From Candidatus Omnitrophota bacterium (GTDB lineage: Bacteria; Omnitrophota; Gorgyraeia; Gygaellales; JAQTUX01): a stretch of 64,000 nt of DNA. How positions within the stretch are numbered: the first letter of the stretch is position 1; each line of letters starts with the position of its first letter. Shown here piece after piece: positions 39,244 through 58,308 of this stretch. The position numbers and the translations under genes were made by a program. A model generated the notes under the pieces. It did no database searches and was not told the DNA's origin. It saw only the letters and a program-made list of their open reading frames with translations. The stretch spans positions 433,872 to 497,871 of the forward strand of contig JAQTUX010000002.1 in NCBI GenBank assembly GCA_028707125.1, written 5' to 3'.

Positions 39244-39244
39244 C

Positions 39245-43228: not shown

Positions 43229-43256
43229 TTTATCTCACCTTCCATCTTTATGATCC

Positions 43257-43604
43257 TTAATCCCTGTGTAACGCGGGATTTTCCCGGTCAAAAACATAAA
43301 GCGGCTTTGCTGTATAAAATCCTGTTGACCAGGGGTATAATCTCTGGCGCCTTGTACCTCTCCCTAATTCTTCATCATCTCTTTTCTCGTTCTCTACTGT
43401 CGTCATGTTAAAAATCCTGCCCGACTGATAGTCGGTATGCCTGTATTTGAAATTATTGCTAAACCAGAGCAGGATATTGAACGTCCCCAAAAGCAGAACC
43501 ACAAAGGCGATAAAGGCAACCGTTGATTCTATGGTTACCTGCCCCGTACCTTTACCACGGACCTTCAACCTTATGCCCTGTTGCCCATCCCTTATCTTTA
43601 TCAT
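43257..43604 (-). CDS. TadE-like pseudopilin (…GKGTGQVTIESTVAFIAFVVLLLG…); start probably at internal Met ~43604
   Basis: Class III signal-peptide-like N-terminus. The track ORF 43257..43643 overlaps the upstream gene, so the likely true start is the internal Met. Confidence 0.45.
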   Translation of the reverse strand: MIKIRDGQQGIRLKVRGKGTGQVTIESTVAFIAFVVLLLGTFNILLWFSNNFKYRHTDYQSGRIFNMTTVENEKRDDEELGRGTRRQRLYPWSTGFYTAKPLYVFDRENPALHRD

Positions 43605-44859: not shown

Positions 44860-45178
44860 ATTTGGATTGCCTCACCTTCTCATCTCCTTTGCGCAATGTT
44901 ACGCTGCTAACCTGCTCTGTAGTGCTTCTATTGCGACCATCCGCCTGGTTCCGCGGATTAATAATACTTGATACAGACACCGAGCCGGTTTCCAGATACG
45001 TATACATACCGGAGTAAGTGTTCCCCGGAGAATACTGCTGGCCTATGTCGTCCGCGGCAAGCCGCATCCTGCCCTGGATCGCGCGCTTAACATAGGTCTG
45101 CATGGCGATCAAGGCGCCGACAATAACGATCACCAGCACGCATATCTCTAACGAGGACTGGCCTGATCTACGCATCAT
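44840..45178 (-). CDS. Flp/TadE-type prepilin-like paralog (…MMRRSGQSSLEICVLVIVIVGALIAMQTYVKRAIQGR…)
   Basis: Track ORF 44840..45217. The likely start is the internal Met. G/QSSLE + hydrophobic helix + conserved 'AMQTYVKRAIQGR'. C-terminal 'KYEYFGN'. Confidence 0.6.
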   Translation of the reverse strand: MMRRSGQSSLEICVLVIVIVGALIAMQTYVKRAIQGRMRLAADDIGQQYSPGNTYSGMYTYLETGSVSVSSIINPRNQADGRNRSTTEQVSSVTLRKGDEKVRQSKYEYFGN

Positions 45179-45188
45179 CTTTCCTTCC

Positions 45189-45650
45189 TTATTCAACCGG
45201 CTGAGTTGCCTCAGCATAAGATTTTGTCCACGTTACTTCTCCGCCTATCGGCTCTGCGCCATCCGGAAGATCGGAATGATCCGAAGGGCCAATCTCCAGC
45301 ACGGTAGCGAATTCCTCATTTACAGCCGGACTGTCAACGCCGTATTGCTCATCTTTTTCGTTGCCGGCCATGAATTCGGTATCTTTAGTGTTGCTTAAAC
45401 TATACGACTCTGCGGCCGATCTTGATATCTCACCCAGCATCAGGTCACGCTCAGGGACGTACTGGTCACGCTCAATATCAAACTCGGGGCCTAATTTTAA
45501 AATACTATTAGCCGAGTTAGCTATGCCGCCCTGGATCGCGCGCTTGACATAGGTCTGCATAGCCACAAGCGCTGCCCCCACAAGAGCGAATACGATAGCG
45601 TATTCGCTCAAGCTCTGGGCTTTAGTCCTCCTGATAGAACCTCCGGCCAT
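45189..45650 (-). CDS. Flp/TadE-type prepilin-like paralog (A/QSLSEYAIV variant)
   Basis: 153 aa with the same N-terminal architecture and an acidic C-terminal extension. Confidence 0.55.
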   Translation of the reverse strand: MAGGSIRRTKAQSLSEYAIVFALVGAALVAMQTYVKRAIQGGIANSANSILKLGPEFDIERDQYVPERDLMLGEISRSAAESYSLSNTKDTEFMAGNEKDEQYGVDSPAVNEEFATVLEIGPSDHSDLPDGAEPIGGEVTWTKSYAEATQPVE

Positions 45651-45692
45651 AGCTGAACACTCCCTGTGAAGTTAAAACTGCCATAAAACACT

Positions 45693-46169
45693 TTAATTGC
45701 TAACGGCCTGTATCCATCGATTATGACTATCAATGGTCACATTACTCGTTGGGCTCGAGGCCTCAGGTATCGTGTCTTCGTCTGAAACAAAACCACCGTA
45801 ATCCGTTGTTGCCGGCTCCGGCTCTTCGTCGCTATCCGGATCCTGTCCCCAGAACTCATGTTTTTGCTTGGCAACGATCTCCCATCCTTTACGGTTCTGC
45901 TGCTGCGTATCGATCTGTGAACCTGACCGTTCAAATTCTCCACCACTCAATTGCACCCAGTCCCTGCTAACTGTGTAAGAATCGGTCTGATGAGCGCTCT
46001 TGGTATAGCCCGGTGAATACTGCTCGCCCATATCATCGGAAGCGCTTCTCAGACGGCCCTGGTAGCCGCGCTTGATGAACGTCTGCATGGCTATGAGGGC
46101 GCCGATGATGACTACTATAAGTATGGCGAATTCCAACGTGGATTGGCCTTTGTTCTCTTTAATAAACAT
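45693..46169 (-). CDS. Flp/TadE-type prepilin-like paralog (MFIKENKG/QSTLEFAIL…)
   Basis: Track ORF 45693..46283. The likely start is the internal Met at ~46169 with an AAGGAGGTGA RBS. The N-terminal half is identical to the next paralog. Confidence 0.6.
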   Translation of the reverse strand: MFIKENKGQSTLEFAILIVVIIGALIAMQTFIKRGYQGRLRSASDDMGEQYSPGYTKSAHQTDSYTVSRDWVQLSGGEFERSGSQIDTQQQNRKGWEIVAKQKHEFWGQDPDSDEEPEPATTDYGGFVSDEDTIPEASSPTSNVTIDSHNRWIQAVSN

Positions 46170-46193
46170 TTCTTCTATCACCTCCTTACTATT
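46008..46193. repeat. 186-bp perfect direct repeat, copy 1 (pilin paralog 5' end + RBS)
   Basis: Identical to 46526-46710 by eye ('cccggtgaatactgctcgcccatatcatcggaagcgcttctcag…cctccttactatt'). Confidence 0.8.
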
Positions 46194-46686
46194 GAGGAAT
46201 TGGCGACGTCTCTGCAGTAGCCAAATTCGTATTGAATTCTGTTGAATATCTACCACTATGCACGGCTGCCTGATCTGCGGCACTCACGCCTTCTAACGCG
46301 TCGGGTGTCTCTCCGCCAGTAATCGTGTGTTTCCGACCTTCGTTTATCTCTTCCGGAACTTCACCCCAGAATTCAAAATTTGACTTTGCCACTGACTCCT
46401 TATTGATCCTGTCTTGATGCTGGTTCTTTATCTCGGAAATAGAAATTATTTTGTTATTAGCGTCGGCCTTTACCCTCTCCTCGTTATGCGCAAAACTTAT
46501 ATTATACTCATCGGATTGCGTGTATCCCGGTGAATACTGCTCGCCCATATCATCGGAAGCGCTTCTCAGACGGCCCTGGTAGCCGCGCTTGATGAACGTC
46601 TGCATGGCTATGAGGGCGCCGATGATGACTACTATAAGTATGGCGAATTCCAACGTGGATTGGCCTTTGTTCTCTTTAATAAACAT
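46189..46686 (-). CDS. Flp/TadE-type prepilin-like paralog (MFIKENKG/QSTLEFAIL…)
   Basis: Track ORF 46189..46716. Internal Met start with the same RBS. Its 5' 186 bp is a perfect copy of the downstream paralog. Confidence 0.6.
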   Translation of the reverse strand: MFIKENKGQSTLEFAILIVVIIGALIAMQTFIKRGYQGRLRSASDDMGEQYSPGYTQSDEYNISFAHNEERVKADANNKIISISEIKNQHQDRINKESVAKSNFEFWGEVPEEINEGRKHTITGGETPDALEGVSAADQAAVHSGRYSTEFNTNLATAETSPIPQ

Positions 46687-46710
46687 TTCTTCTATCACCT
46701 CCTTACTATT
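46526..46710. repeat. 186-bp perfect direct repeat, copy 2
   Basis: See copy 1. Confidence 0.8.
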
Positions 46711-47083
46711 GGTCAACCGGAGCGTGGAATTTCTGCGCCCCCTTTCTCGCTATCTCCTCTCTGTTAATATTTCTCTCAACCTCGCCGCCTTCCTTTACTT
46801 TAGTATCTACCTCGTCGGCTCTACCGGTAGCAAACCTTGATTCAAGATAATACGGCTCATATTGCCCTGTCTGAAAACTCAATTCTGTGGTATTGCCAAC
46901 ATCGGTAAGCGTTATTCCCGTCTCTGTTCCGGCTATTGTCGGCTGAAGCTGCGTAGATTGCTCTATCCTGCCCTGCAGGCCTCTTTTTACGTATGTCTGC
47001 ATGGCGATCGCGGCAGCTACTACCAGCCCGATAAGAACCGCGTATTCCGCGGTATTCTGCCCCTCTCTATTCCGTAGTAACAT
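46706..47083 (-). CDS. Flp/TadE-type prepilin-like paralog (MLLRNREG/QNTAEYAVL…)
   Basis: 125 aa. RBS GGGGGTG 7 nt upstream. Confidence 0.65.
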   Translation of the reverse strand: MLLRNREGQNTAEYAVLIGLVVAAAIAMQTYVKRGLQGRIEQSTQLQPTIAGTETGITLTDVGNTTELSFQTGQYEPYYLESRFATGRADEVDTKVKEGGEVERNINREEIARKGAQKFHAPVDQ

Positions 47084-47120
47084 TTATTTTCACCCCCTTT
47101 AAGCGAATGAATGACTCTGA

Positions 47121-47582
47121 CTATGTGCCGTTAATGGTCCGATTAGCTGTTGCCCCGGGTTTTTCCTGCGTCTGGTATCCTATTCTCTTTGTCTTAGTGT
47201 CGGATTCAGCGCGTAAAACAGCGCCTCCCAGACCTACATGTTCATGTTCAGGCGTTCTGCTGGCGCTTACGAAATCCGAACGAAGATATTCTGGTTCATA
47301 CTGATGCCCGCTTGCGAACAGGTTCTCAGCACCGATAAAAGGCACCGTAGCATTTATGGTCGTATTTGTCGTTGTCGTATTGTTTACGGGATTGGTCGTC
47401 CGCAATACACCCGCAAGACTAAAAGTGCTTACTGTATGCGGCCTTGCGTCTACCGCGTCTTTCACCTTCCCTTGTATGCTTCTCTTAACCAATGTCTGCA
47501 TGCCAATCGCGGCAGCTACTACCAGCCCTATCAGGACGGCGTATTCCGCGGTATTCTGCCCCTTTCTATTCCGTAGTAACAT
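47121..47582 (-). CDS. Flp/TadE-type prepilin-like paralog (MLLRNRKG/QNTAEYAVL…), Thr/Asn-rich C-terminus
   Basis: 153 aa. The N-terminus and 5' leader are near-identical to 46706..47083. Confidence 0.65.
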   Translation of the reverse strand: MLLRNRKGQNTAEYAVLIGLVVAAAIGMQTLVKRSIQGKVKDAVDARPHTVSTFSLAGVLRTTNPVNNTTTTNTTINATVPFIGAENLFASGHQYEPEYLRSDFVSASRTPEHEHVGLGGAVLRAESDTKTKRIGYQTQEKPGATANRTINGT

Positions 47583-47619
47583 TTATTTTCACCCCCTTTA
47601 AGCGAATGAATGACTCTGA

Positions 47620-47847
47620 CTATGTAGTGCCGTTTACTGTTGGCCTTTCTCCTTCTAAAGGCGTATATGTTGCCCTGTAGCTCTCGGTCTTGTCTTGCAT
47701 TTCTCCCGCAACATGCGCTACACCCAACTCAAGATGCTTCTTCATAAGAGCGCTGATGACCACTACCGCAGCCACAATGGCTGTGAATACTATCACGTAT
47801 TCCATTATTGACTGGCCCTTCTTCGCGTTGAACTTCATTTCTTTCAC
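47620..47847 (-). CDS. Short Flp-type prepilin (MKEMKFNAKKG/QSIMEYVIVF…)
   Basis: 75 aa, classic Flp size and motif. Confidence 0.65.
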   Translation of the reverse strand: MKEMKFNAKKGQSIMEYVIVFTAIVAAVVVISALMKKHLELGVAHVAGEMQDKTESYRATYTPLEGERPTVNGTT

Positions 47848-47896
47848 CTCCTTCTTTTAACAAAAAATCCCGGCAAAATTACCGGGATAAATCCTG

Positions 47897-48061
47897 TCAG
47901 GTATTCAGCGGCTCGGCGTTGATCTGATTCTCCAATGCCTTCAGATTCGCCTGCACAGCCCGCTGCACATAAACGCGCATAGCCACAAACGCGCTGACCA
48001 CAATAATTATTAAGACAGCATACTCAAGTGAGGCCTGACCCCTATGCCATCTATTTACCAT
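47897..48061 (-). CDS. Short Flp-type prepilin (MVNRWHRG/QASLEYAVL…); start at internal Met
   Basis: Track ORF 47897..48175 overlaps the upstream gene. The internal Met gives a 54-aa prepilin. Confidence 0.5.
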   Translation of the reverse strand: MVNRWHRGQASLEYAVLIIIVVSAFVAMRVYVQRAVQANLKALENQINAEPLNT

Positions 48062-48063
48062 CG

Positions 48064-48282
48064 CTACCTCCGGATTGACTCTGCTATGCCGCTGAAAAAA
48101 CCTCTCAATCCAAACGCGCTTTCGCTTTTCAAGTAAGCCGCGAACATCACAAAGGTCACCACCGCGAAGGCACAAAAGATCAAAAAATATTCTACTGTTG
48201 CTTGGCCTTTTTTAATTCTTAAGCACTTTGTAAAAGTTTTGTTTAAGTGCCTAATAAAAAAACCGAAAGTTTCTTTCATCAT
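48064..48282 (-). CDS. Flp-type prepilin-like ORF (…RIKKG/QATVEYFLIF…) with uncertain start
   Basis: Has the G/XXXXEY motif, but its first 10 codons coincide with a hairpin + T-run terminator-like structure. Confidence 0.45.
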   Translation of the reverse strand: MMKETFGFFIRHLNKTFTKCLRIKKGQATVEYFLIFCAFAVVTFVMFAAYLKSESAFGLRGFFSGIAESIRR

Positions 48283-48466: not shown

Positions 48467-50065
48467 TTATTGTGAGAACCAGAAACGGCGGCCGGTTTTA
48501 TCAACGCTATTTAGTTCGTTGGCGCGCTTAGAAAGATAGGCAATATCGTTGGTATGGCCTTGCGGCTGGAATTTGATGAGGTTGTATTTATCCTGTTGGA
48601 TCGATCTGCCGCGTAGTTTGAAAACCCGCTCCGTTATATCGTTTAAGGCAATCTTATCATAACCTATTGGCAATAAATGTGTTGCGCAATACTTTATCAG
48701 GCCCCAGCGCCAGGCCTTAAGCACGCTCTCAAAGGATAGCGCCTCAGGTATGTATCCCCTCTCCCCCTGCTTGCGCGTTTCCTCCGTCGAGAAAACATTC
48801 TTCAGGCCGAATGAGAAAAACTCGATCCTCTTGTTGAAATCATCCAGAGCATCCTTGAAATCAGGCCATTTGTTTAAATACGCCCGGGCAACGTCCTCTT
48901 TGCTTAACGACTCTTTATCCATATCTGTCAGCAACACAAGATAATACCTGTCCCGCGAGGCCTTCTTAATGAAAATGGCCCTTAACGTAACTAATTGATT
49001 TAGCTTATGTTGCGTGAATTGAGCCGTCCCTTCCGACAATACGATCTCCTCAAGATCGGGTCCTGGCCGGAAAAAAGACCCTTCTTTTTTATCCTCTAAG
49101 GCGATTTCGGAGGCGTATTGCCCTTCAGGCAGCCCTATTATAAAGTCGGTTTTAAGGCGCGGTATCTCGCAGGCGCTGCTTATCTCCTCTCTGCCAGAGG
49201 TGAAGAACGATATGTTTTTAACGTAGAGATGCGAGGGGAACTTACAGCAGCCGATGAAATCAAGCAGGCCTTGCGGCATCTTGCTCGCTAAGGGGGCGAT
49301 AAAGATAACAAACGGCTCTGTCTTGTTTATGAAGGTATTTTTTATATAAATCTCTGTATTGTAATATGTTGCGTAAAAATCTGACGGGATATTACCATAA
49401 GGCCAGATCGTCCTCGCGCTTGCGTCAATATATATTGAAGAGTCGTCTGATAACACAAATTTCAAATACTGCACCTCTCGGATACGCGGCATAAGCTCTT
49501 TGTATAACCTGAAATTGATTGCTGTATTATATTGCAATTGTTCAAGATAAGATACCAACCCCCCATAATCTATGCCGGCTCCTGTAAGGCGCTCAAACGT
49601 CTCTTTTATATAACTATTTGATTCGTAATCGTTTACGTCACCAAATAGGGAGATGTACAATAAAGTTTCCACGAGCGCCCTGATGTTTCCAGGGGCATTT
49701 TCGGCAGTGGTTTCTTGCAATAAATTCGTTATATAATCAACCCCTCCCAAAGTGTTTTCAATTGCCTTGAGCAAATATAGGCCCATATTCAATTCGCCTT
49801 CTTGAGGGAGTTTTGGGGGCTCCGGTTTTATCTCTGGCCTTATCTCAGGAAGGGGCGGCACAGGCGCCCCCTTCCTGCGCCTGCCAACAGGGCTGCTTAG
49901 ATTTAATTGTTTGATTATATTATTTACTGTGGACTTTGATATTGTCTTATTGAATCTCTGAGAAAGCGTAGCGGATATTTTCCTCGCGCTCAGGCCGGGG
50001 TTTTGCTTCTTAAGATCAGAAATGCTCTGTTTGAGCTCTTCAGTTACTTTGTAGATAACGCCCAT
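48467..50065 (-). CDS. Hypothetical 532-aa protein with N-terminal HTH-like segment
   Basis: Track ORF. The N-terminal '…LSARKISATLSQRFNKTISKSTVNNIIKQ…' resembles a helix-turn-helix, followed by a Pro/Lys-rich linker and a large unassigned domain. Confidence 0.55.
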   Translation of the reverse strand: MGVIYKVTEELKQSISDLKKQNPGLSARKISATLSQRFNKTISKSTVNNIIKQLNLSSPVGRRRKGAPVPPLPEIRPEIKPEPPKLPQEGELNMGLYLLKAIENTLGGVDYITNLLQETTAENAPGNIRALVETLLYISLFGDVNDYESNSYIKETFERLTGAGIDYGGLVSYLEQLQYNTAINFRLYKELMPRIREVQYLKFVLSDDSSIYIDASARTIWPYGNIPSDFYATYYNTEIYIKNTFINKTEPFVIFIAPLASKMPQGLLDFIGCCKFPSHLYVKNISFFTSGREEISSACEIPRLKTDFIIGLPEGQYASEIALEDKKEGSFFRPGPDLEEIVLSEGTAQFTQHKLNQLVTLRAIFIKKASRDRYYLVLLTDMDKESLSKEDVARAYLNKWPDFKDALDDFNKRIEFFSFGLKNVFSTEETRKQGERGYIPEALSFESVLKAWRWGLIKYCATHLLPIGYDKIALNDITERVFKLRGRSIQQDKYNLIKFQPQGHTNDIAYLSKRANELNSVDKTGRRFWFSQ

Positions 50066-50190: not shown

Positions 50191-50532
50191 TTACTGAAAG
50201 GTAATGACATCCCCTGTTTCAGTGCGGGTCTGGCGAGCAGTTCCGGAAGGAAGTTCTATGCAGTAATAAGCCCCAAGATAAATGCCAGAAAGGCGCCAGG
50301 GCTGGAGATCATGCAAAACCTTGATAACCCTGCCCTGCCTTGTGGTAAAGACAGCGTCAATGCTGAATTTCATAAAAAAGGTGTGAATGGAGGTGCAGGC
50401 GGCTATGACCAGGCCCTCTCCCTGATGAAGGGACGTCTTTCCCAAAAGCCCCTTCATGCGCGAAACCAGGGTATCGGCTAAGGCGGCGTTTTCTGCCAGA
50501 ACCGTGCCCTTACCCTGGTTGATTATTTTCAT
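50191..50532 (-). CDS. DUF192-family protein (commonly encoded in tad loci)
   Basis: 113-aa track ORF whose sequence pattern (…GLLGK…GEGLVI…CTSIHTFFMKFSIDAVF…) is typical of DUF192/COG1430. Confidence 0.7.
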   Translation of the reverse strand: MKIINQGKGTVLAENAALADTLVSRMKGLLGKTSLHQGEGLVIAACTSIHTFFMKFSIDAVFTTRQGRVIKVLHDLQPWRLSGIYLGAYYCIELPSGTARQTRTETGDVITFQ

Positions 50533-52691
50533 TACTGCTTGAAGAGGTTATCAGGGACTTCAACACCGTGGGACTTTATTTCCTCTATAAATGAAGGGAT
50601 ATATCCTGTGGGGATGTAGGTGCCGGTGATCCTTCCGTCCTTATCAAGCCCTGTCTGCTTGAATGTAAAAATGTCCGCCATATCAATATGCACGTCGTCC
50701 TTCATGCCGGTGATCTCGGTGATCTGCATGATCTTCCGGGAGCCGTCAGAAAGCCGCGCCGTATGCACGATTATATCAACTGCCGAGGCGATCATTTCGC
50801 GTATGGCGCGGATAGGCAGTTCTGCCCCGGACATCAGTATCATTGAATCAAGCCGGGAAAGGACATCGTGAGTGGAATTGGCGTGTATGGTGGTAAGCGA
50901 ACCGTCGTGGCCTGTGTTCATTGCCTGAAGCATATCCAGGGATTCCGGGCCGCGGCATTCGCCTATTATTACCCTATCAGGCCTCATTCTCAGGGTATTC
51001 CTGAAAAGCTCCCGTATGCTGATGCCGCCCTTGCCTTCTATATTGGGCGGCCTTGACTCAAGCCGCCCCCAATGCTCCTGGCGAAGCTTCAACTCTGCCG
51101 CGTCTTCAATGGTTATGATCCTCTCATTCTCCGGTATAAACTCGGAGAGCACATTCAAAACCGTGGTCTTGCCTGAGCCGGTTCCGCCGGACACTATCAG
51201 ATTCTTACGCACGATCACGCATATCTTTAAGAAATCCTTCATCTGTTCGCTTAAGGTGCCGAACCTCAGCAGATCATTGATATTGAACCTCTCTACGCCG
51301 AATTTCCTTATGGTAAGCATTGGCCCGGTAAGGGAAAGCGGCGGGATGATCGCGTTCACGCGGGAGCCGTCAGGAAGGCGCGCGTCCACCATGGGAGTGG
51401 ACTCGTCAATATGCCTGCCGAGAGGGGCGATTATCCTCTCAATGATCTGCCGGACCTGATCGTCCGAAAGAAACCTCTTGCTGGTCAATTCTATCCTGCC
51501 GCGCCTTTCTATATAGATCTGGTCCTTATTATTGACCATTATGTCGGTTATGTCTGGATCGCTGATAAGGTCTTCCAGCGGCCCTAACCCCAGCGCTTCA
51601 TCCGTGATCTCTTTTATAAGCCGCTTTCTAACCTCAAAACTGGAGAGGAATGCTCCGGTCTCGGCAGCCAGGGCGTTTGACACGGCCTTCTCGGTCTTCT
51701 CCTTTATCTGGCTCACCTTATTCGGATCGATCGTATTCAGATCAAGCCGTTTCAGATCCAATTCTTCTATGATACGCTGGTGCACCCTTTTCTTAAGGAT
51801 GATGACTTCGTCCCTCTCGGACTCTACTCTTTCCGCCAGGCGCAGCGGCTCAGCCAACCCCAGGCGCCGCCAGAAATCTCCTTCCTTGGCCAAAACAGAT
51901 TCTCTTGCCCTCTCCAGCGCCACCTCCTGGTGTTCAATGTACAGGTCCGCCTTCTCAACAAGGACCTTGCCCAGGCCCTTGATCACATTGCTTACCTTTG
52001 AGCGCGGGGCGTCAATTACGATGGGGACCCTTCTGTTCACGGAATAACCCACTGCCTTGCCTTCCGAGGGGATCTTGGCCAGTATCTCACAGGGAAGCGC
52101 TGCCCTTACCTCCTGCCAGGTAACACCCCCCACGCTCTCTGAACGGTTGAGGAGAAGCTTTACCATTTTCAGGGGGAAGTGCAGCGATTGCAGAACATCC
52201 AATGACCACTTGGTCTGATACACGGAAAGTATGTCGGGGGTAACCACCAGGAGGACAAGGTTTGACTGATTAAAGGCATAAAACAGCATCTCAGAAAAAC
52301 CCTTACCCACATCCATAATAACGTAGTCATATTCCTTATTGAGCATCGCGAAGACGTCGCTTATGTATTTTTCCTCAAGGTGCACGCTCTGGCGGGGGCG
52401 GGAGACCGCGGCAAGGAAATCAATTTTCAGATCGGGGAGTTTCAGCATAAACTCCCTTATAGACGCCACCGGCGGCTGTTTCTTAAGGCCGACTATCGCG
52501 TCAAGAAAGTTATACGACGGGCTTATGTTAAGCATGCGCGCCATATCTCCCGGCGCCTGAGTATCCAGGTCAAGCAGGGCGACCTTCTTGCCCTGGTCTT
52601 TTGCTATGCTTACGGCAAGATTGGCGGCGATAAGGGTTTTCCCTACCCCACCCTTAGTGGAGAAAATCGCGATTGTCTTAGCGGAAGGCAT
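50532..52691 (-). CDS. tadA: Fused TadZ/CpaE-like ParA-type ATPase domain + TadA/CpaF secretion ATPase (719 aa)
   Basis: The N-terminus 'IAIFSTKGGVGKTLIAANLAV' is a deviant Walker A of the MinD/ParA/CpaE type. The C-terminus 'IVSGGTGSGKTTVLN…' is a CpaF/VirB11-type Walker A, followed by the His-box region. Confidence 0.8.
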   Translation of the reverse strand: MPSAKTIAIFSTKGGVGKTLIAANLAVSIAKDQGKKVALLDLDTQAPGDMARMLNISPSYNFLDAIVGLKKQPPVASIREFMLKLPDLKIDFLAAVSRPRQSVHLEEKYISDVFAMLNKEYDYVIMDVGKGFSEMLFYAFNQSNLVLLVVTPDILSVYQTKWSLDVLQSLHFPLKMVKLLLNRSESVGGVTWQEVRAALPCEILAKIPSEGKAVGYSVNRRVPIVIDAPRSKVSNVIKGLGKVLVEKADLYIEHQEVALERARESVLAKEGDFWRRLGLAEPLRLAERVESERDEVIILKKRVHQRIIEELDLKRLDLNTIDPNKVSQIKEKTEKAVSNALAAETGAFLSSFEVRKRLIKEITDEALGLGPLEDLISDPDITDIMVNNKDQIYIERRGRIELTSKRFLSDDQVRQIIERIIAPLGRHIDESTPMVDARLPDGSRVNAIIPPLSLTGPMLTIRKFGVERFNINDLLRFGTLSEQMKDFLKICVIVRKNLIVSGGTGSGKTTVLNVLSEFIPENERIITIEDAAELKLRQEHWGRLESRPPNIEGKGGISIRELFRNTLRMRPDRVIIGECRGPESLDMLQAMNTGHDGSLTTIHANSTHDVLSRLDSMILMSGAELPIRAIREMIASAVDIIVHTARLSDGSRKIMQITEITGMKDDVHIDMADIFTFKQTGLDKDGRITGTYIPTGYIPSFIEEIKSHGVEVPDNLFKQ

Positions 52692-52700
52692 AGTTATTCT

Positions 52701-54311
52701 TCAGCGTCTTTTATAAACAATGGGGACGTCAACCCAGAGTTCTCCATCCTGGATCTGGGGCGGAAACGGAGGATAGGGGGACTGCGCTTTGGCAACGGAG
52801 ATCGAGGCGTCATCAATGATCTTGTAGCCGGATGACTCGGTTAATTTTATATCCCCGAGCCGGCCGTTACGCAGGATGCGAAGGCTTAATTTCACTACCC
52901 CTTCCCATCCCGCGTCGCGGGCAACCTTAGGATAATACACTGACCTGGATATCTTGGTCTGCACTGCCTTGACGTATTTGTACACATTTTCGTTGCCCAG
53001 AAAATATGAAGGAGAGACGATATCCGCCTCAAATGAGGCATCGCTCCTCTGCCGGGACATCCCCCCCTTGCGCAGGGAAAGATTGCCGATGTCCTCTTCC
53101 TTTATAACGTGAGGGGTAAGAGTGATCACCAGCTCCGTCTGGTTATTGGTAAAACTTTTTGACCTGAACAGAGCGCCTAAAACCGGCACATCTCCCAGGG
53201 CAGGCCACTTAGTCAAGGTATCGCTGTCTTTATTCTTAATTAAACCCGCCAGAAATACGGTCTGTCCGTCCTTAAGATATAGTTCGCTCTCCGCCTTGCG
53301 CGTGTCAAAGCCGGGTATGTTGATACCGCCTGCCGTTACTGAATTAGCGGTATTTATCTCGCTTACCTCCATTGTCAGCTGGGTAATGATCGCCTCGCTT
53401 TTTGTGTAAGTAGGCTTGATCTTCAAAGAGATACCTATATCCCTGTATTCCACATTAGTGGTAAAATTCTCTCCCAGCGTGCTGGTAGTGACAATGGGCA
53501 CCTCTCCGCCGACAAGGAACTCCGCCTCTTTACCGCTTAAACATACGAGTTTTGGCCGGGAAAGCACCCTGCCCTTGCCGCGCTTGATATACATGTTCAA
53601 TGCCGCGGTCACGTCTGTGCGGGTAAGGTAGCCGATCCTGAATGCCTCCGCCACCCTGTGGCTGAGCGGCTCTGTGGCTATGCCTTCAAAGGGGTTTTCC
53701 GTTACGGTTGTAAGCGGCTGGAGCGTCCAGCCGACGCCCAGATTATCGGCGTCGTCTATAGTCAACTCCAGGATCTGGACGTCTATCTCAATAGAGGTCT
53801 TTGACTCCTCGGTAATAACCGTGTTTACTACATATTGTTTCAAATCGCCCAATACGTAGTCAAGCTTCTCTTTTTCCGCTTCATTCACTACCTGTCCGCT
53901 CAGAAATACCTTCCTCTCATCCTCGTTTATCTTTGTCTGAACTTCGGAAAAACCCGTATCCGCGAGGACCCGCTTGATCCGCGCGTTAACCTGGTCCAGA
54001 TCCACGCTGAATACCTTCAGGCGGAAGGAGTGCTCGCCGAATTTATCCCAGTAAACAAAGGTGGTGGTGCCGTCCGCCTTAGCGTTCACTACTATATCTG
54101 TTTCAGTAACCTCGGCGACATCCGCCACAGCGGGATTACCGATCACCACCCGTGTCGGCTCTTGCGCTTCAAAATGCCTGACCTCATTCACCATCAGCAT
54201 TATCTCTTCAACGCCTTCTATCTCCCCTATATCAAACAATGCCGACGCGGGAGCGGGATGCGACAGTGCCAGTAAACCAACCAGGATAGGAACTAACAGC
54301 GCTTTTCTCAT
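52701..54311 (-). CDS. cpaC: CpaC/RcpA-type secretin with C-terminal TonB_C-like domain
   Basis: Signal peptide. Secretin core '…LVCLSGKEAEFLVGGEVPIVTTS…ISLKIKP…VFLAGLI…'. C-terminal 'YPKVARDAGWEGVVKLSLRILRNGRLGDIKLTESSGYKIIDDASISVAKAQ…PFP' resembles the TonB C-terminal domain. Confidence 0.8.
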   Translation of the reverse strand: MRKALLVPILVGLLALSHPAPASALFDIGEIEGVEEIMLMVNEVRHFEAQEPTRVVIGNPAVADVAEVTETDIVVNAKADGTTTFVYWDKFGEHSFRLKVFSVDLDQVNARIKRVLADTGFSEVQTKINEDERKVFLSGQVVNEAEKEKLDYVLGDLKQYVVNTVITEESKTSIEIDVQILELTIDDADNLGVGWTLQPLTTVTENPFEGIATEPLSHRVAEAFRIGYLTRTDVTAALNMYIKRGKGRVLSRPKLVCLSGKEAEFLVGGEVPIVTTSTLGENFTTNVEYRDIGISLKIKPTYTKSEAIITQLTMEVSEINTANSVTAGGINIPGFDTRKAESELYLKDGQTVFLAGLIKNKDSDTLTKWPALGDVPVLGALFRSKSFTNNQTELVITLTPHVIKEEDIGNLSLRKGGMSRQRSDASFEADIVSPSYFLGNENVYKYVKAVQTKISRSVYYPKVARDAGWEGVVKLSLRILRNGRLGDIKLTESSGYKIIDDASISVAKAQSPYPPFPPQIQDGELWVDVPIVYKRR

Positions 54312-55201
54312 TGCTCTCCCTTTCCGCCTGTCAGCGAAACGGTTTCCTTGCTAAGCCCTCTATATATCTCCACTTGCCTTGCCTGCGCCGGAGCCGTAGC
54401 TGCCTCCTGCGCCTTCTGGATCAACTCGGGATAGATATGCTGTAAGACCATATCCCAGCTTGCGGGCGGGGCCTTGGTAACCTTACTGTCCGCGGGCGAA
54501 CGCAATGACAGCCGGATCTTTCCCTGTTCATGCACAAAAGAGATCAGCGTGGCCTCTTCGGGGCTGACCGCTAGCGTTATAGGCGGGTTTGCCTGGGCGC
54601 TTGAACTCTCGCCGCGGGAGGTCTGCCCCCCTACCGCTAAAATAAGTATATTCTGGAACATCGTCATTGTGGTATTCTGGACGACCTGGTTGCCGTCAGG
54701 GCCGCGCATAGGTATGGGCACGTCTCCCAGCACATCTACATAGTCACCCGGCCGTATCATTCCGCCTACCGCGGCAATATTATCTATTATCAAAGTTATG
54801 GCGCGTTTTCCAGCCGGTGTCTTCATTGCCAGGGTAGTCTCATCTCCCGGCAGTTTGATCTTATTGCTCAGAATATGCTCGCCGCTGGATATATCCAGAG
54901 AGGCGATCTTGCCGATCGCGGCTCCCGTGTGGGTTAATGCCCTGGGCTGTATGGCTGACTTGGGAACCGATTCTACCTTAACGTCCCTCTCTTCTAAAAC
55001 CGTGCCGACGGAAATATCGCGCGCGGCAACAACGACATTAGAGTAATCTTCTTTCTGCGCCCGAGCCATACTCTTTAACCCCTCTTCTTTTTGCTTTATA
55101 TAAGTATTAATAAGCAAAACGGCAAGCGCGCCCGCGATTATGGCTATGGCCAGAGGCATATGTTTCTTGATACCGGAAACGCCAAGGGAGGGGATCGGCA
55201 T
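54308..55201 (-). CDS. cpaB: CpaB/RcpC Flp pilus assembly protein (SAF domain)
   Basis: 297 aa with an N-terminal TM segment and a SAF-like region. It overlaps the secretin start by 4 nt. Confidence 0.75.
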   Translation of the reverse strand: MPIPSLGVSGIKKHMPLAIAIIAGALAVLLINTYIKQKEEGLKSMARAQKEDYSNVVVAARDISVGTVLEERDVKVESVPKSAIQPRALTHTGAAIGKIASLDISSGEHILSNKIKLPGDETTLAMKTPAGKRAITLIIDNIAAVGGMIRPGDYVDVLGDVPIPMRGPDGNQVVQNTTMTMFQNILILAVGGQTSRGESSSAQANPPITLAVSPEEATLISFVHEQGKIRLSLRSPADSKVTKAPPASWDMVLQHIYPELIQKAQEAATAPAQARQVEIYRGLSKETVSLTGGKGEQ

Positions 55202-55206
55202 AAATA

Positions 55207-56127
55207 TTACTCCACCTTATCTTCGTACACTTCTATTTTGGACTTACTGGAAAGACCGCCTATCAATTCTTCGATCTTCTGTTGCTGCTTGAGGAACCTC
55301 AGGCCGTTCTTAATATCATCCCACATCTGCGCCAGCGAGCGCGTCTGTCCGCCTTTCTTCTCTTCTAATTTAATAATGTAGTAGCCGTCAGGGCCTTTAA
55401 AAATACTGCTGGTCTTGCCCTGCTCAAGCGTGGGCGAAAAAGCGACATCCTCAAACTCTTTGAATTTCTGGCCCGCGGCCACAAACCCTATATCTCCGCC
55501 GTTCGCGGCTGAAGAGTCCTTGGAAGAGTTTCTGGCTACCGTCGCGAAATCAACCCCCTGGAGCAGCTGGATCAAGGCCTGCTTCGCCTCATCTTCCCCC
55601 GCCGTGACGATTATCCTGAAACGCCTCTGCTCGGGCTCGCGCAGCTGCTCTTTGAACCTGTTATAGTACTCCTCTATCTCCTGCGAGGTCACGTCTATAT
55701 TGGCCGTCTCTTCCCTGACCAGCTCGGCGACCACGAGGTTCTGCTTCAATTTATTCAGCGCCACCTCTACCTCGGGGTTATCGTCAAGGTTTCTGGCCAT
55801 ACCCTCCTGATAGAGAAGCTCCCTTCTAACCAGTTCATTCCTGAGATAATCCAGTTTTTTATCCCGCGTATCTATCTTAAGCTCTGGCCTGTCCGCGGGG
55901 ACCAGGTTGTTGTAACCCGCAACCTCCTGATTTAAGTCCTCCAAGGTCACGAATGAATCGTTGACCTTGGCCGCGATGGTACCCTGGGGCTTAGCCGCCT
56001 TCGCTTCTGTTGTCTTTTTTTCTGCCCCGGCCTGCTTTTTTAAAAAGGGGATCTGGTCGCATCCCCACAACATAGCTGCTGATAAGATCACGAAAGAAAG
56101 AAAAACATGACTGCCCCTGCCCTTCAT
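55207..56127 (-). CDS. Parvulin-type peptidyl-prolyl cis-trans isomerase (SurA/PrsA-like), probable lipoprotein
   Basis: Signal peptide ending …AAMLWGC (atypical lipobox). A SurA-like chaperone N-region is followed by a PpiC domain ('…GGDIGFVAAGQ…FSP…GKTSSIFKGPDGYYIIKLEEK'). RBS GGAGGT 6 nt upstream. Confidence 0.7.
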   Translation of the reverse strand: MKGRGSHVFLSFVILSAAMLWGCDQIPFLKKQAGAEKKTTEAKAAKPQGTIAAKVNDSFVTLEDLNQEVAGYNNLVPADRPELKIDTRDKKLDYLRNELVRRELLYQEGMARNLDDNPEVEVALNKLKQNLVVAELVREETANIDVTSQEIEEYYNRFKEQLREPEQRRFRIIVTAGEDEAKQALIQLLQGVDFATVARNSSKDSSAANGGDIGFVAAGQKFKEFEDVAFSPTLEQGKTSSIFKGPDGYYIIKLEEKKGGQTRSLAQMWDDIKNGLRFLKQQQKIEELIGGLSSKSKIEVYEDKVE

Positions 56128-56313: not shown

Positions 56314-58308
56314 GTGAAAATGGCTGACAGGTCTAAGTTCATAAAAAACACTGAGTTCGCGTTAGGGGCAGCCGCCCTTGCCTTTCTCTTCGCTCTTTTA
56401 TACCTGAATATGCTCATCCAGTCGCGCGATCCGGATATCTGGCTGCATCTTAAGACCGGAGAATATATTGTCCAGAACCGGGCTGTGCCGCAAGAAGACA
56501 TATTCTCCTCTACGGTATCCGGAAAAGAATGGATCGACCATTCCTGGCTTGTGCAGGTGATCTTCTATTCGGTATTTCATCTGTCGGGAATAAACAGCGT
56601 TGCCTCTCTCTGCGCCGTCATAGTCCTGCTTGCCTTTCTTTTCCTCTTTCTAAGCACCTACGAGCAGCGCGAGTATTTGGTCTTAAGCGTACTCATGCTG
56701 ACAATAACGCTCCTGGCCTCGCTTATAAGGTTCAACCTGAAACCGGAAAACTTCTCCCTTCTGTTTTTTGCTATTTATCTATACATATTAAGGAAGCATC
56801 CGCATAATAAAATCGTCTTCATCCTGCCCCTGATACAGGTTATCTGGGCAAACTGCCACGGATTCTTTATATTGGGCCCTCTTTTATTGTTGATATTTAT
56901 CGTCGCGGAAAAGACAAAACGACATCTGTGGCCGGTCTTCCTGCTGGCCTGCGCCGCGTCTTTCCTGACCCCATACGGTTATAAAGGGGTGCTGTATCCC
57001 TTCACCATAATATTAGGATCCACAGGAAAGATCGGCATATTTTATAAACATATAATCGAGCTTCTGCCCACCTGGCAATTAGGCCCGCGGGCGTTCCTGC
57101 CGTATCTTGCTTTGATCATAATCTCTCTATTCTCATTTTTACTAAATCATAAAAAACTTAATCCCGCCTATATTATAATCTGGCTGTCGCTTTTGGGCAT
57201 ATCGCTCAGGATCAACCGGAATGTCATCTTCTTCAACTTCGCGGCCTGCCTATTCACCGTGGATAATATCAGGGCATTTTGGGAAAAGGAAGGCCCTAAA
57301 TTCTCCCGGGGCATTCCGGGCAAAGCCATCTCTGCATCTAAATATATCCTGATCATCTTTACAGCCGGCTGGCTGCTGCAAAAGAACGCGGCCATATTAA
57401 ATAATAACCCGTATTATTATATCTCCGCAAGGGACTGCCCTGATAAAGCGGCTGAGTTCATCCTGAAAGAAGGCCTGCCGGAAAATATATTCAACGTCTT
57501 CAACCACGGTTCCTATTTTATCTATAAACTGTTCCCGCGGGAAAGGGTCTTTATTGACGGAAGGACCGAATTATACGGCGGAGGGTTCTTTGAGGACTAC
57601 CAGAAAATACTTAATATCAATGAGCCGGCGATAAATAACCTGCTTGAGCGATACAAGATAAATACGGTCATATTAAGCGACAACTTGCCTACGGTATCCG
57701 GCCTGATGGCATACCTCTATCGCAGGCCGGACTGGGCCCTGGTCTATTTTGATGAAGACGCGCTGATATTCTTAAGAAATAACGAACGAAACAAAGCGCT
57801 TATCAGCCGGCTGAAAGTTGATTTAAATAACCGGCCGGTTACAAAGACGGGCCTCTCCGCTACGCACGCAAGATTTGCCTGGATGTTTTATTATCTGGGC
57901 CTTAAGGAACAGGCAATAAACGAGGCCAAAGAGGCATTAAAAATATGGGAGAGGTCTGCGGATGCCTATAATGTCCTGGGCAGGATCTATACCGCGCAAA
58001 AGCGCTACGCAGAGGCATTGGAAAATCTGCGCCTTGCCCGCGCCTATGCTCCGTCTAATATGGAAACCCTCATCGGCCTTGGCGATCTTTATATGGAAAA
58101 AAGAGAGTATGCCGAGGCGATACGGATATACAAAAAACTGGTTGATCTCTACCCTTATAAATCTGAACCACATTATCTGTTAGGAAAGGGTTACCACGCG
58201 GCAAATAACCTGAAGGCGGCTATCAAATCCCTGAAGAAGGCAGTCGGATTAAATCCCTACAAGGATAAATATCATAAAGAACTTGTACGGGTCTATAATA
58301 AAGGATAG
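56314..58308 (+). CDS. Polytopic membrane GT-C-like glycosyltransferase (PMT/ArnT-like architecture) with C-terminal TPR repeats
   Basis: 664 aa (GTG start at 56314 or ATG at 56320). About 11 TM helices with extracytoplasmic loops, then >=3 TPR repeats. Family assignment is by architecture only. Confidence 0.5.
   Translation: MKMADRSKFIKNTEFALGAAALAFLFALLYLNMLIQSRDPDIWLHLKTGEYIVQNRAVPQEDIFSSTVSGKEWIDHSWLVQVIFYSVFHLSGINSVASLCAVIVLLAFLFLFLSTYEQREYLVLSVLMLTITLLASLIRFNLKPENFSLLFFAIYLYILRKHPHNKIVFILPLIQVIWANCHGFFILGPLLLLIFIVAEKTKRHLWPVFLLACAASFLTPYGYKGVLYPFTIILGSTGKIGIFYKHIIELLPTWQLGPRAFLPYLALIIISLFSFLLNHKKLNPAYIIIWLSLLGISLRINRNVIFFNFAACLFTVDNIRAFWEKEGPKFSRGIPGKAISASKYILIIFTAGWLLQKNAAILNNNPYYYISARDCPDKAAEFILKEGLPENIFNVFNHGSYFIYKLFPRERVFIDGRTELYGGGFFEDYQKILNINEPAINNLLERYKINTVILSDNLPTVSGLMAYLYRRPDWALVYFDEDALIFLRNNERNKALISRLKVDLNNRPVTKTGLSATHARFAWMFYYLGLKEQAINEAKEALKIWERSADAYNVLGRIYTAQKRYAEALENLRLARAYAPSNMETLIGLGDLYMEKREYAEAIRIYKKLVDLYPYKSEPHYLLGKGYHAANNLKAAIKSLKKAVGLNPYKDKYHKELVRVYNKG

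What the first reader, a model, noticed from the sequence alone, without database searches (positions are those of the whole stretch)
52701..54311. Tad secretin carrying a C-terminal TonB_C-like domain
The secretin core is followed by '…YPKVARDAGWEGVVKLSLRILRNGRLGDIKLTESSGYKIIDDASISV…PFP'. That matches the TonB C-terminal fold, which contacts TonB boxes or peptidoglycan. A secretin-TonB_C fusion could couple the outer-membrane pore to periplasmic or peptidoglycan contacts. It might also energise or gate passage of very large cargo, such as the giant protein. This arrangement is uncommon.
Basis: partly seen in the sequence, partly recalled or inferred. Interest (0 to 1): 0.55.

Follow-up and report, generated by a model that had tools for sequence, protein, structure and literature searches.

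The report
Tad secretin with fused TonB-type domain
The outer-membrane pore protein of a pilus machine in an Omnitrophota bacterium really does end in a TonB-type binding domain; this fusion is standard across the phylum, is not described in the papers searched, and most likely acts as a built-in docking or anchoring module, not an energy coupler.

Summary
ORF 52701..54311 (-) encodes a 536-aa RcpA/CpaC-type Tad secretin. It has a signal peptide, a PF13629 N-domain and a Secretin domain (E=7e-46). A disordered tether of about 36 aa then leads to an intact TonB/TolA-type C-terminal domain (Pfam TonB_C E=5.5e-16; AF2 pLDDT 94; TM 0.77 to H. pylori TonB-CTD).

It is not a one-off. All 120 best database hits and all 80 best GTDB species loci carry the fusion, and every informatively named one is Omnitrophota. 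The family is separated by a sharp score gap from ordinary CpaC. TonB_C is as conserved as the pore domain (47% vs 49%), while the tether is not (14%).

The protein has no inner-membrane anchor and no Pro-rich spacer, so it is not a TonB and cannot transduce energy by itself.

The module sits where P. aeruginosa RcpA carries its pilotin-binding tail. The fused loci lack detectable TadD/CpaD accessory genes and instead always begin with a lipoprotein SurA-like PPIase.

Best reading: a passive, cis-tethered docking or anchoring module. The partner is unknown. The PPIase's N-terminal peptide and peptidoglycan are the two candidates.

NCBI names the protein "TonB family protein", and the Omnitrophota papers do not mention the fusion.

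The parts
52701..54311 (-). Whole gene: Tad (RcpA/CpaC-type) secretin fused to a TonB_C domain, 536 aa
   Evidence: ORF. Pfam and NCBIfam domains. It is an exact match to an NCBI protein named 'TonB family protein [Candidatus Omnitrophica bacterium]'.
54240..54311 (-). Signal peptide (aa 1-24, MRKALLVPILVGLLALSHPAPASA), predicted cleavage after ASA
   Evidence: This is the only hydrophobic segment of the protein. The cleavage site is inferred by eye from the AxA motif.
54009..54209 (-). N-terminal beta domain (aa 35-101), PF13629 T2SS-T3SS_pil_N, typical of CpaC/RcpA
   Evidence: 4e-11. The AF2 model has pLDDT above 90 here.
53823..53999 (-). BON-like alpha/beta domain (aa 105-163)
   Evidence: The BON match is weak and below threshold (19 bits). 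The region is confidently folded in the model.
53100..53804 (-). Secretin pore domain (aa 170-404)
   Evidence: Pfam Secretin 7e-46. Best solved relatives by sequence are 8jvb (2e-39) and P. aeruginosa RcpA 8odn (9e-34). Fold matches are to secretins.
52992..53099 (-). Flexible tether (aa 405-440), variable in length and sequence
   Evidence: Residues 409-438 have pLDDT below 50. Family linker length is 20-72 aa, median 28. Mean pairwise identity is 13.7%. Proline is 10.6%, so the linker is not TonB-like.
52710..52991 (-). TonB/TolA-type C-terminal domain (aa 441-534): helix, short helix, strand, strand, helix, strand
   Evidence: Invariant residues are Y446, P461, A464, G471, G483, S494, G495, D500 and P517. 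Mean pairwise identity is 46.8%, against 48.6% for the pore domain.
55207..56127 (-). First gene of the cassette: lipoprotein SurA-like PPIase (lipobox ...LWGC). Candidate assembly chaperone or partner.
   Evidence: Rotamase domains. A lipobox Cys is present in 74 of 74 orthologs and is followed by a semi-conserved [DE]-K-[IL]-x-[FL] peptide and a tether of about 26 aa. An ortholog is present in 76 of 82 loci.
54308..55201 (-). CpaB/RcpC
   Evidence: TIGR03177 2e-54. It lies immediately upstream of the secretin in 76 of 76 assessable loci.
50532..52691 (-). TadZ/CpaE (MinD-like) fused to the TadA/CpaF ATPase, 719 aa
   Evidence: It lies downstream of the secretin in 66 of 66 assessable loci.
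50191..50532 (-). DUF192 protein
   Evidence: A tblastn match is present in 57 of 82 loci.
48467..50065 (-). 532-aa protein with an N-terminal HTH; a conserved locus component
   Evidence: HTH hits are sub-threshold. It is homologous over its full length to the protein at the equivalent position in L001 (24% identity, E=4e-22).
44840..48282 (-). Cluster of about eight Flp-type pilin genes (G/xxxxE[YF] class III signal motif)
   Evidence: Read directly from the translations.
40424..44859 (-). Two large proteins (435 aa and 934 aa) with pilin-like N-terminal hydrophobic helices, possibly TadE/TadG-like pseudopilins
   Evidence: Sequences. No Pfam hit. The assignment is inferred.
38347..40093 (-). 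TadB and TadC platform proteins
   Evidence: T2SSF domains.
2..38338 (-). Giant gene (at least 12,779 codons within the window, running off its end). Its ATG lies 8 nt after the TadC stop codon, and it has an N-terminal Peptidase_C39 domain.

Best explanation
The gene encodes the outer-membrane secretin of the Omnitrophota Tad-like pilus/secretion machine. In this lineage the short C-terminal tail found in canonical Tad secretins has been replaced. That tail is the S-domain, which in P. aeruginosa RcpA binds the pilotin TadD. Here it is replaced by a flexible tether of about 20-70 residues carrying a complete TonB/TolA-type C-terminal domain. In an assembled channel (13-14 subunits in RcpA), a crown of these domains would hang in the periplasm at the outer rim of the barrel, just under the outer membrane. 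I propose it is a passive docking module that captures a short extended peptide of a partner protein by beta-strand addition, which is the established binding mode of this fold. It would thereby help target, assemble or stabilise the secretin, taking over the job done in trans by TadD or CpaD in other Tad systems. It is not an energy transducer.

Shown: the domain identities, the fold, the tether, clade-wide conservation, the lack of a membrane anchor, and the absence of detectable TadD/CpaD next to the fused secretins.

Inferred: the periplasmic position (by homology to RcpA), the docking role, and the partner. My leading partner candidate is the N-terminal peptide of the lipoprotein PPIase encoded at the head of the operon.
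For: Domain identity and fold.

The secretin domain ends at residue 404, which aligns to RcpA residue 371, so the extension occupies the position of RcpA's C-terminal tail. The last four residues of that tail bind TadD and are essential for assembly (PMC10499894).

The linker is disordered and variable, while TonB_C is as conserved as the pore domain.

All 120 best protein hits and all 80 best GTDB loci carry the fusion. Scores fall sharply from 342 bits or more (all fused) to 126 bits or less (ordinary CpaC), so this is one deep clade.

The strongest single-copy relatives of the module are all secretin fusions or fragments of them.

Non-fused control loci carry TadD-like TPR and/or Pilus_CpaD genes and no PPIase. 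In 1.35 Mb around fused secretins there is no CpaD hit and only two weak, distant TPR hits.

The PPIase is a lipoprotein in 74 of 74 orthologs, with a semi-conserved peptide after the Cys and a tether of about 26 aa.

TonB and TolA C-terminal domains bind their targets by beta-strand addition (PMC12204202).
Against: No partner has been identified, and no complex prediction or binding data exist. The PPIase peptide motif is short and low in information, and it could equally be a lipoprotein-sorting signal; by the E. coli rule, which I cite from my own knowledge, D/E at +2 means inner-membrane retention. The TadD/CpaD absence test used tblastn only, covered only flanks of 10 kb or less, and could miss divergent or distantly encoded genes. 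The control set of non-fused loci is only three. One of them (L085) lacks TadD, CpaD, PPIase and TonB_C alike within its 12 kb, so an accessory is not obligatory. The monomer AF2 model shows no in-cis strand pairing with the domain.
Confidence: 0.45

Rival explanations
1. Direct peptidoglycan anchor. The TonB_C crown binds the cell wall and fixes the secretin against pilus retraction forces. This would make it functionally equivalent to the AMIN domains of PilQ or the OmpA-like CpaD belt of Caulobacter.
For: Secretins are repeatedly coupled to peptidoglycan binders: PilQ AMIN domains (PMC5285504) and the CpaD belt around CpaC (PMC13170226). CpaD is absent from the fused loci. Some family members carry two tandem TonB_C modules that arose by repeated duplication. 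That is the pattern seen with avidity-driven binders of polymeric ligands, and PilQ AMIN copy number varies in the same way. From my own knowledge, not checked here: Kaserer et al. 2008 reported peptidoglycan binding by the TonB C-terminus.
Against: The established ligand type for this fold is a peptide strand, not glycan. No recognised peptidoglycan-binding domain (LysM, OmpA, AMIN, SPOR) is detected. Module charge is not conserved: pI ranges 4.2-9.7 with a median of 5.7. Peptidoglycan binding by TonB C-terminal domains is itself poorly established.
Confidence: 0.25
2. Self-association clamp. Neighbouring TonB_C domains, or a TonB_C and a neighbour's linker, pair by strand exchange around the ring. 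This would staple the oligomer together and make it independent of a pilotin.
For: The local concentration is high, with 13-14 copies on short tethers (RcpA stoichiometry). From my own knowledge: TonB C-terminal domains form strand-swapped dimers in crystals. 1u07 appears among the fold matches.
Against: The linker has no conserved motif (13.7% identity). An odd stoichiometry (C13) is awkward for dimers. There is no direct evidence.
Confidence: 0.1
3. Cargo or substrate receptor. The TonB_C crown recognises a box peptide on a secreted substrate, for example the giant protein encoded downstream, and presents it to the channel.
For: The giant gene starts 8 nt after TadC in the same operon. This locus type is conserved upstream of Omnitrophota giant genes (10.1101/2023.11.21.568195).
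Against: No motif or interaction has been identified. The C-terminus of a secretin lies on the outside of the barrel, not at the periplasmic vestibule entrance (inferred from the RcpA-TadD structure). The fusion occurs in far more genomes than are known to have adjacent giant genes. The locus has about eight Flp pilins, so the pilus is the obvious substrate.
Confidence: 0.07
4. Energised gating. The domain couples the pore to a proton-motive-force motor, or competes with or relays force from a genuine TonB-ExbBD system, to open the channel for very large cargo.
For: PocAB-TonB3, an ExbBD-TonB paralogue, is required for type IVa pili in P. aeruginosa by an unknown mechanism (PMC5285504). So a link between TonB-family proteins and pilus machines exists somewhere in bacteria.
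Against: There is no transmembrane anchor and no Pro-rich spacer. The domain is covalently attached to the outer-membrane component, which is the opposite topology to a force transducer. No ExbB/ExbD genes are in the locus.
Confidence: 0.04

Closest known systems
RcpA/CpaC secretins of Tad (Flp) pilus systems (P. aeruginosa RcpA, PDB 8odn; Caulobacter CpaC)
   Same: Same PF13629 N-domain plus Secretin core. Solved Tad-type secretins are the best sequence matches. Same neighbours: CpaB/RcpC, TadZ/TadA, TadB/C and Flp pilins.
   Different: RcpA ends in an unstructured tail whose last four residues bind the TPR pilotin TadD, and CpaC is belted by the OmpA-like lipoprotein CpaD. Here the tail is replaced by a tether plus a folded TonB_C domain, and no TadD or CpaD gene is detectable nearby.
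TonB / HasB / FusB energy transducers and TolA (C-terminal domain III)
   Same: The C-terminal module has the same fold and the family motifs (YP...G.EG, SSG..LD.AA). The best solved match is the H. pylori TonB C-terminal domain.
   Different: There is no N-terminal transmembrane helix to couple to ExbB/ExbD or TolQ/R, and no periplasm-spanning Pro-rich domain II. The module is attached to an outer-membrane channel instead. NCBI's name 'TonB family protein' is therefore misleading.
Peptidoglycan-tethered secretins: PilQ with N-terminal AMIN domains; CpaC with the CpaD belt
   Same: A pore-forming secretin equipped, in cis or in trans, with an extra envelope-contact module whose copy number can vary.
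   Different: The module type differs (TonB_C instead of AMIN or OmpA-like). The position differs (C-terminal at the outer rim, not N-terminal as in PilQ). The ligand is unknown.
PocAB-TonB3 requirement for type IVa pili in P. aeruginosa
   Same: A TonB-family C-terminal domain is functionally tied to a type IV filament machine. Carter et al. speculated about a TonB3-PilQ contact.
   Different: There the TonB paralogue is a separate inner-membrane protein with its own motor. Here only the C-terminal domain is present, fused to the secretin. No homology between the two systems was tested.

Membership tests
Secretin superfamily, Tad-type (RcpA/CpaC) | Secretin domain (PF00263) above the curated threshold | tested here: met
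   156.3 bits against a gathering score of 27.5, residues 243-404.
Secretin superfamily, Tad-type (RcpA/CpaC) | CpaC/RcpA-type N-terminal domain (PF13629), as opposed to the N0/STN plus Secretin_N repeats of GspD and PilQ | tested here: met
   PF13629 scores 42.9 bits against a gathering score of 23. No Secretin_N or STN hit was reported.
Secretin superfamily, Tad-type (RcpA/CpaC) | Encoded in a Tad locus with CpaB/RcpC, TadZ, TadA, TadB/C and Flp pilins | tested here: met
   Synteny holds in 76 of 76 and 66 of 66 assessable related loci.
Secretin superfamily, Tad-type (RcpA/CpaC) | Short unstructured C-terminal S-domain that binds a TadD-type pilotin | tested here: not met
   The C-terminus is a tether plus a folded TonB_C domain. 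No TadD-like gene was found nearby.
Secretin superfamily, Tad-type (RcpA/CpaC) | Forms a gated 13-14-mer channel in the outer membrane | not testable with these tools
   Only monomer models were possible.
TonB-family energy transducer | TonB_C domain (PF03544 / TIGR01352) above the curated threshold, with the TonB C-terminal fold | tested here: met
   59.2 bits against 24.6, and 49 bits against 27.1. TM 0.77 to 6sly.
TonB-family energy transducer | N-terminal transmembrane helix that couples to the ExbB/ExbD motor | tested here: not met
   The only hydrophobic segment is a cleavable signal peptide at residues 4-24.
TonB-family energy transducer | Long Pro-rich periplasm-spanning spacer | tested here: not met
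   The linker has a median length of 28 aa and is 10.6% Pro, against 25.6% in the E. coli TonB spacer.
TonB-family energy transducer | Binds a TonB box of a TonB-dependent transporter by beta-strand addition | not testable with these tools
   No multimer prediction was available. Whether this genome encodes such transporters could not be checked from a 64-kb window.
Peptidoglycan-binding secretin anchors (AMIN, OmpA-like, LysM) | Presence of a recognised peptidoglycan-binding domain | tested here: not met
   There is no AMIN, OmpA, LysM or SPOR hit. The only related hits are a weak BON match and a weak NF008399 match, both below threshold.

The most novel reading that the evidence does not exclude
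The fusion is a 'Rosetta stone' for a new kind of secretin-chaperone coupling. In this reading, the TonB_C crown on the secretin captures the TonB-box-like N-terminal peptide ([DE]-K-[IL]-x-[FL], on a tether of about 26 residues) of the dedicated lipoprotein SurA-like PPIase encoded at the head of the operon. Beta-strand addition of the TonB-box/TonB_C type would thus be reused for pilotin-like targeting and assembly of an outer-membrane channel. By extension, TonB-family C-terminal domains may contact type IV filament machines directly, which would bear on the unexplained PocAB-TonB3 requirement for pili in Pseudomonas.
Probability: 0.15. Interest if true: 0.7.

Novelty: new variant of a known kind. 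Interest (0 to 1): 0.45.

Why it matters
Secretins need accessory factors to reach, assemble in and stay fixed in the outer membrane, and these factors differ from system to system. A whole phylum of ultra-small bacteria, thought to be predatory or parasitic, has replaced the usual Tad accessories with a fused TonB-type domain plus a lipoprotein PPIase. That would be a new solution to this problem, and the first case I could find of a TonB_C fold hard-wired to a secretin.

It has practical consequences too. Automated annotation calls these proteins 'TonB family protein'. A 2026 Omnitrophota preprint counts 'TonB-domain' genes flanking giant genes separately from the pilus genes. These are probably the same secretin, which I did not verify. 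The machine sits directly upstream of the giant genes that are the phylum's most discussed feature, so knowing how its pore is built matters for any model of how those proteins or the pili are deployed.

Tried and rejected
1. Artefactual gene fusion or frameshift. Rejected: the architecture is conserved at 35-78% identity in hundreds of independent assemblies.

2. The C-terminus is an ordinary S-domain. Rejected by the HMM matches, the model and the fold search.

3. A TonB-like energy transducer. Rejected: no membrane anchor and no Pro-rich spacer.

4. Looking for the fusion outside Omnitrophota.
- The GTDB scan returned only Omnitrophota-titled records, one unclassified 'MAG: bacterium', and 'uncultured Planctomycetales/Planctomycetia' assemblies that are probably coarse labels.
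- Cluster names for the double-TonB_C variants were uninformative. One was labelled Hydrothermarchaeota, probably a binning error.
- A homology search seeded with P0141, whose Ala-rich signal peptide looked typical of a high-GC genome, again found only Omnitrophota-named relatives.
- So there is no evidence for the fusion elsewhere, but its absence elsewhere is not proven.

5. The profile search with the TonB_C module. Many top hits were proteins with 3-6 tandem TonB_C repeats and no secretin. They rank high through summed scores and are not close relatives.

6. Module charge as a test for peptidoglycan or membrane binding. Uninformative, because pI ranges from 4.2 to 9.7.

7. The 532-aa HTH ORF inside the locus as a transposase insertion. 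Rejected: it is conserved at the same position in L001.

8. Co-occurrence of a giant gene with the fusion in related loci. Not assessable, because flanks are 10 kb or less and the giant gene starts about 14 kb downstream of the secretin gene's end.

9. Literature searches for 'secretin + TonB' fusions, Omnitrophota Tad loci and V. archaeovorus found no description of this architecture.

10. An in-cis TonB-box in the linker or the N-terminus. The linker is unconserved. The N-terminal E-E-x-x-L-x-V segment is simply the first strand of the PF13629 domain.
Full report
**Observation**

The window contains an ATG-initiated ORF at 52701..54311 on the minus strand.
- Pfam finds a CpaC/RcpA-type N-terminal domain (PF13629, residues 35-98, 4e-11), a Secretin domain (243-404, 7e-46) and a TonB_C domain (458-534, 5.5e-16; 59 bits against a gathering score of 24.6). 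The related TonB_2 model also matches.
- NCBIfam's tonB_Cterm model scores above its cutoff as well.
- Both halves of the observation are therefore real and far above chance.

**Structure**

An AlphaFold2 model built on a 50-sequence family alignment gives the following:
- a confident N-domain;
- a BON-like alpha/beta domain;
- the secretin beta-sheets;
- a disordered segment at 409-438 (pLDDT below 50);
- a very confident C-terminal domain at 441-534 (pLDDT 90-96), with the order helix, short helix, strand, strand, helix, strand.

Modelled alone, residues 436-536 reach pLDDT 94.2 and pTM 0.82. The top 26 Foldseek matches in the PDB are exclusively TonB, HasB, FusB and TolA-III C-terminal domains. 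The best is the H. pylori TonB C-terminal domain (6sly, TMq 0.77, 1.8 A rmsd). Sequence search of the PDB with the C-terminal 119 residues finds only TonB-family domains. The full-length model matches solved secretins in one part and TonB C-terminal domains in another, and the separate TonB-domain matches indicate that the solved secretins do not cover the C-terminal part.

**The secretin is of the Tad type**

- The best solved sequence relatives are 8jvb and P. aeruginosa RcpA (8odn).
- The gene sits in a complete Tad locus, all on the minus strand:
  - a PPIase (55207..56127);
  - CpaB/RcpC (54308..55201);
  - the secretin;
  - a TadZ-TadA fusion (50532..52691);
  - DUF192 (50191..50532);
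  - a 532-aa HTH protein;
  - about eight Flp-type pilin genes;
  - two large pilin-like proteins;
  - TadB and TadC.
- A giant gene follows TadC after 8 nt. It has at least 12,779 codons within the window and a Peptidase_C39 domain near its N-terminus.
- This is the conserved 'type II secretion-like' locus described upstream of Omnitrophota giant genes (10.1101/2023.11.21.568195) and the Tad complex discussed by Seymour et al. (PMC10066038). Neither paper mentions a TonB domain.

**Distribution**

- The protein is identical to an NCBI entry named 'TonB family protein [Candidatus Omnitrophica bacterium]'.
- All 120 best hits among 5.8 billion proteins (36-78% identity) have the same PF13629 + Secretin + TonB_C architecture. 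Every one with an organism name is Omnitrophota.
All 80 retained loci match the query through residue 533-536, so they carry the whole fusion.
- Some record titles say 'uncultured Planctomycetales/Planctomycetia'. I regard these as coarse submitter labels but could not verify that.
- CpaB lies immediately upstream in 76 of 76 assessable loci. The TadZ-TadA fusion lies downstream in 66 of 66.
- A search seeded with a divergent member shows a clean break. Every hit of 342 bits or more is fused. The next hits, at 126 bits or less, are ordinary CpaC secretins without TonB_C.
- The fusion therefore marks one discrete, deep clade. It is the rule in this phylum, not a rarity.

**Selection on the module**

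- Mean pairwise identity within the family is 48.6% for the pore domain, 46.8% for TonB_C, 43.4% for the N-domain, 36.4% for the BON-like domain and 13.7% for the linker.
- Linker length ranges from 20 to 72 aa, with a median of 28.
- This is the signature of a functional domain on a flexible tether.
- A profile of the module, searched against 1.84 billion representative proteins, found the following:
  - The strongest single-copy relatives are all secretin fusions or fragments of them.
  - There is a sub-class of secretins with two tandem TonB_C modules (640-1090 aa).
- In that sub-class the two copies within a protein are more alike (51%) than copies between proteins (35-40%). So the duplication was repeated or the copies evolve in concert.

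**What it is not**

- The only hydrophobic segment is the signal peptide.
- The linker is short and 10.6% proline, against 25.6% in the E. coli TonB spacer.
- The protein therefore lacks the two other defining parts of a TonB-family transducer. It is attached to the outer-membrane end of the machine.
- It cannot by itself deliver proton-motive force, and no ExbB/ExbD genes are in the locus.
- The 'energised gating of giant cargo' idea is unsupported.

**Where it sits and what it replaces**

- The secretin domain ends at residue 404, which aligns with RcpA residue 371.
- In P. aeruginosa, RcpA continues as an unstructured tail whose last four residues bind the TPR lipoprotein pilotin TadD. That contact is essential for assembly, and TadD forms a ring around the barrel (PMC10499894).
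- In Caulobacter, an OmpA-like lipoprotein, CpaD, forms a belt around CpaC and is proposed to anchor it to peptidoglycan (PMC13170226).
- By homology, the Omnitrophota TonB_C domains hang at this same outer rim.
- Non-fused control loci behave classically:
  - L083 has a TadD-like TPR gene, and L084 has a TPR gene plus Pilus_CpaD. Neither has a PPIase.
  - L085 shares the TadZ-TadA fusion and DUF192, but has neither TonB_C nor a PPIase.
- In 1.35 Mb around fused secretins, tblastn finds no CpaD and only two weak, distant TPR matches.
- Instead, the cassette always begins with a SurA-like PPIase. It is a lipoprotein in 74 of 74 orthologs.
- After the lipidated Cys it has D/E at +2 (68 of 74), K at +3 (46), an aliphatic or aromatic residue at +4 (68) and F/L at +6. 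A tether of about 26 residues follows.

**Mechanism**

- The established mode of binding for TonB and TolA C-terminal domains is beta-strand addition of a short partner peptide (PMC12204202).
- My best explanation (0.45) is that the domain is a passive, cis-tethered docking module. It would replace the S-domain/pilotin or belt arrangement of other Tad systems and help target, assemble or stabilise the secretin.
- The lipoprotein PPIase's N-terminal peptide is a candidate partner. The probability of that specific pairing is about 0.15. The motif could equally be a lipoprotein-sorting signal.
- Rivals:
  - direct peptidoglycan anchoring (0.25), favoured by analogy with AMIN and CpaD and by the tandem duplications, but not by the fold's known ligands or the unconserved charge;
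  - self-association around the ring (0.10);
  - cargo recognition (0.07);
  - energised gating (0.04).
- The existence of PocAB-TonB3, needed for type IVa pili in P. aeruginosa by an unknown mechanism (PMC5285504), shows that a link between TonB-family proteins and pilus machines is not unprecedented. I did not test any relationship to it.

**Novelty and verdict**

- The sequences are in public databases, but under a misleading name ('TonB family protein') or a partial one ('pilus assembly protein CpaC').
- None of the papers I could search describes the fusion.
- A 2026 preprint lists 'TonB-domain' flanks of giant genes separately from the pilus genes. These are probably this same secretin; I did not check the accessions.
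- I classify the finding as a new variant of a known kind: a Tad secretin with a different, fused C-terminal accessory module.
- It is a solid, checkable lead of moderate interest (0.45). It is not a new type of system.

Noticed in passing
window 55207..56127 (-), and orthologs in L001-L082: The first gene of the Tad cassette is a SurA-like PPIase that is a lipoprotein in 74 of 74 orthologs. After the Cys it has a semi-conserved [DE]-K-[IL]-x-[FL] peptide and a tether of about 26 aa. It is absent from the three non-fused CpaC loci examined.
   Followed up: partly
window 50532..52691 (-): TadZ/CpaE (MinD-like) and the TadA/CpaF ATPase are fused into one 719-aa protein. The fusion is conserved downstream of the secretin in 66 of 66 assessable loci and is also present in the non-TonB_C locus L085. 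In L083 and L084 the two proteins are separate.
   Followed up: partly
P0125, P0127, P0128, P0130, P0131, P0133, P0134, P0141, P0144, P0147 (proteins): This is a sub-class of the secretin family with two tandem TonB_C modules (640-1090 aa). The two copies within a protein are more similar to each other (51%) than to copies in other proteins (35-40%).
   Followed up: partly
window 2..38338 (-): A giant ORF of at least 12,779 codons runs off the window. Its ATG lies 8 nt after the TadC stop codon, and it has a Peptidase_C39 domain at residues 176-254.
   Followed up: partly
window 48467..50065 (-): This 532-aa protein has sub-threshold transposase-type HTH hits and sits in a lower-GC stretch. 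It is nevertheless conserved at the same locus position in L001 (24% identity over the full length, E=4e-22). It is probably a locus-specific regulator and not a mobile element.
   Followed up: partly
window 44840..48282 (-): About eight Flp-type pilin paralogs lie in tandem. Two pairs share nearly identical N-terminal halves (45693..46283 with 46189..46716, and 46706..47083 with 47121..47582), which suggests recent duplication or recombination. The first pair also overlaps in its coordinates.
   Followed up: no
window 50191..50532 (-); also L001, L002, L085: A DUF192 (COG1430) gene follows the TadZ-TadA gene in most loci (tblastn match in 57 of 82 loci). It is also present in the non-fused locus L085. 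Its role in Tad systems is unknown.
   Followed up: no
L001 4040..7701 and L002 3600..7245: A FIST protein, a GAF histidine kinase and a response-regulator GGDEF protein form a trio encoded divergently upstream of the Tad cassette in both distant relatives. The window has a TPR membrane protein at that position instead (56314..58308).
   Followed up: no
proteins P0121, P0122, P0135, P0138, P0143 and others: Many non-secretin proteins in the public collection carry 3-6 tandem TonB_C domains. Some have BlaR1/M56-like N-terminal membrane regions, judged by eye from the N-terminal sequences.
   Followed up: no
window 61702..63993 (-): A 763-aa NHL/beta-propeller repeat protein lies at the lower-GC end of the window (GC falls to 0.38-0.42).
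   Followed up: no
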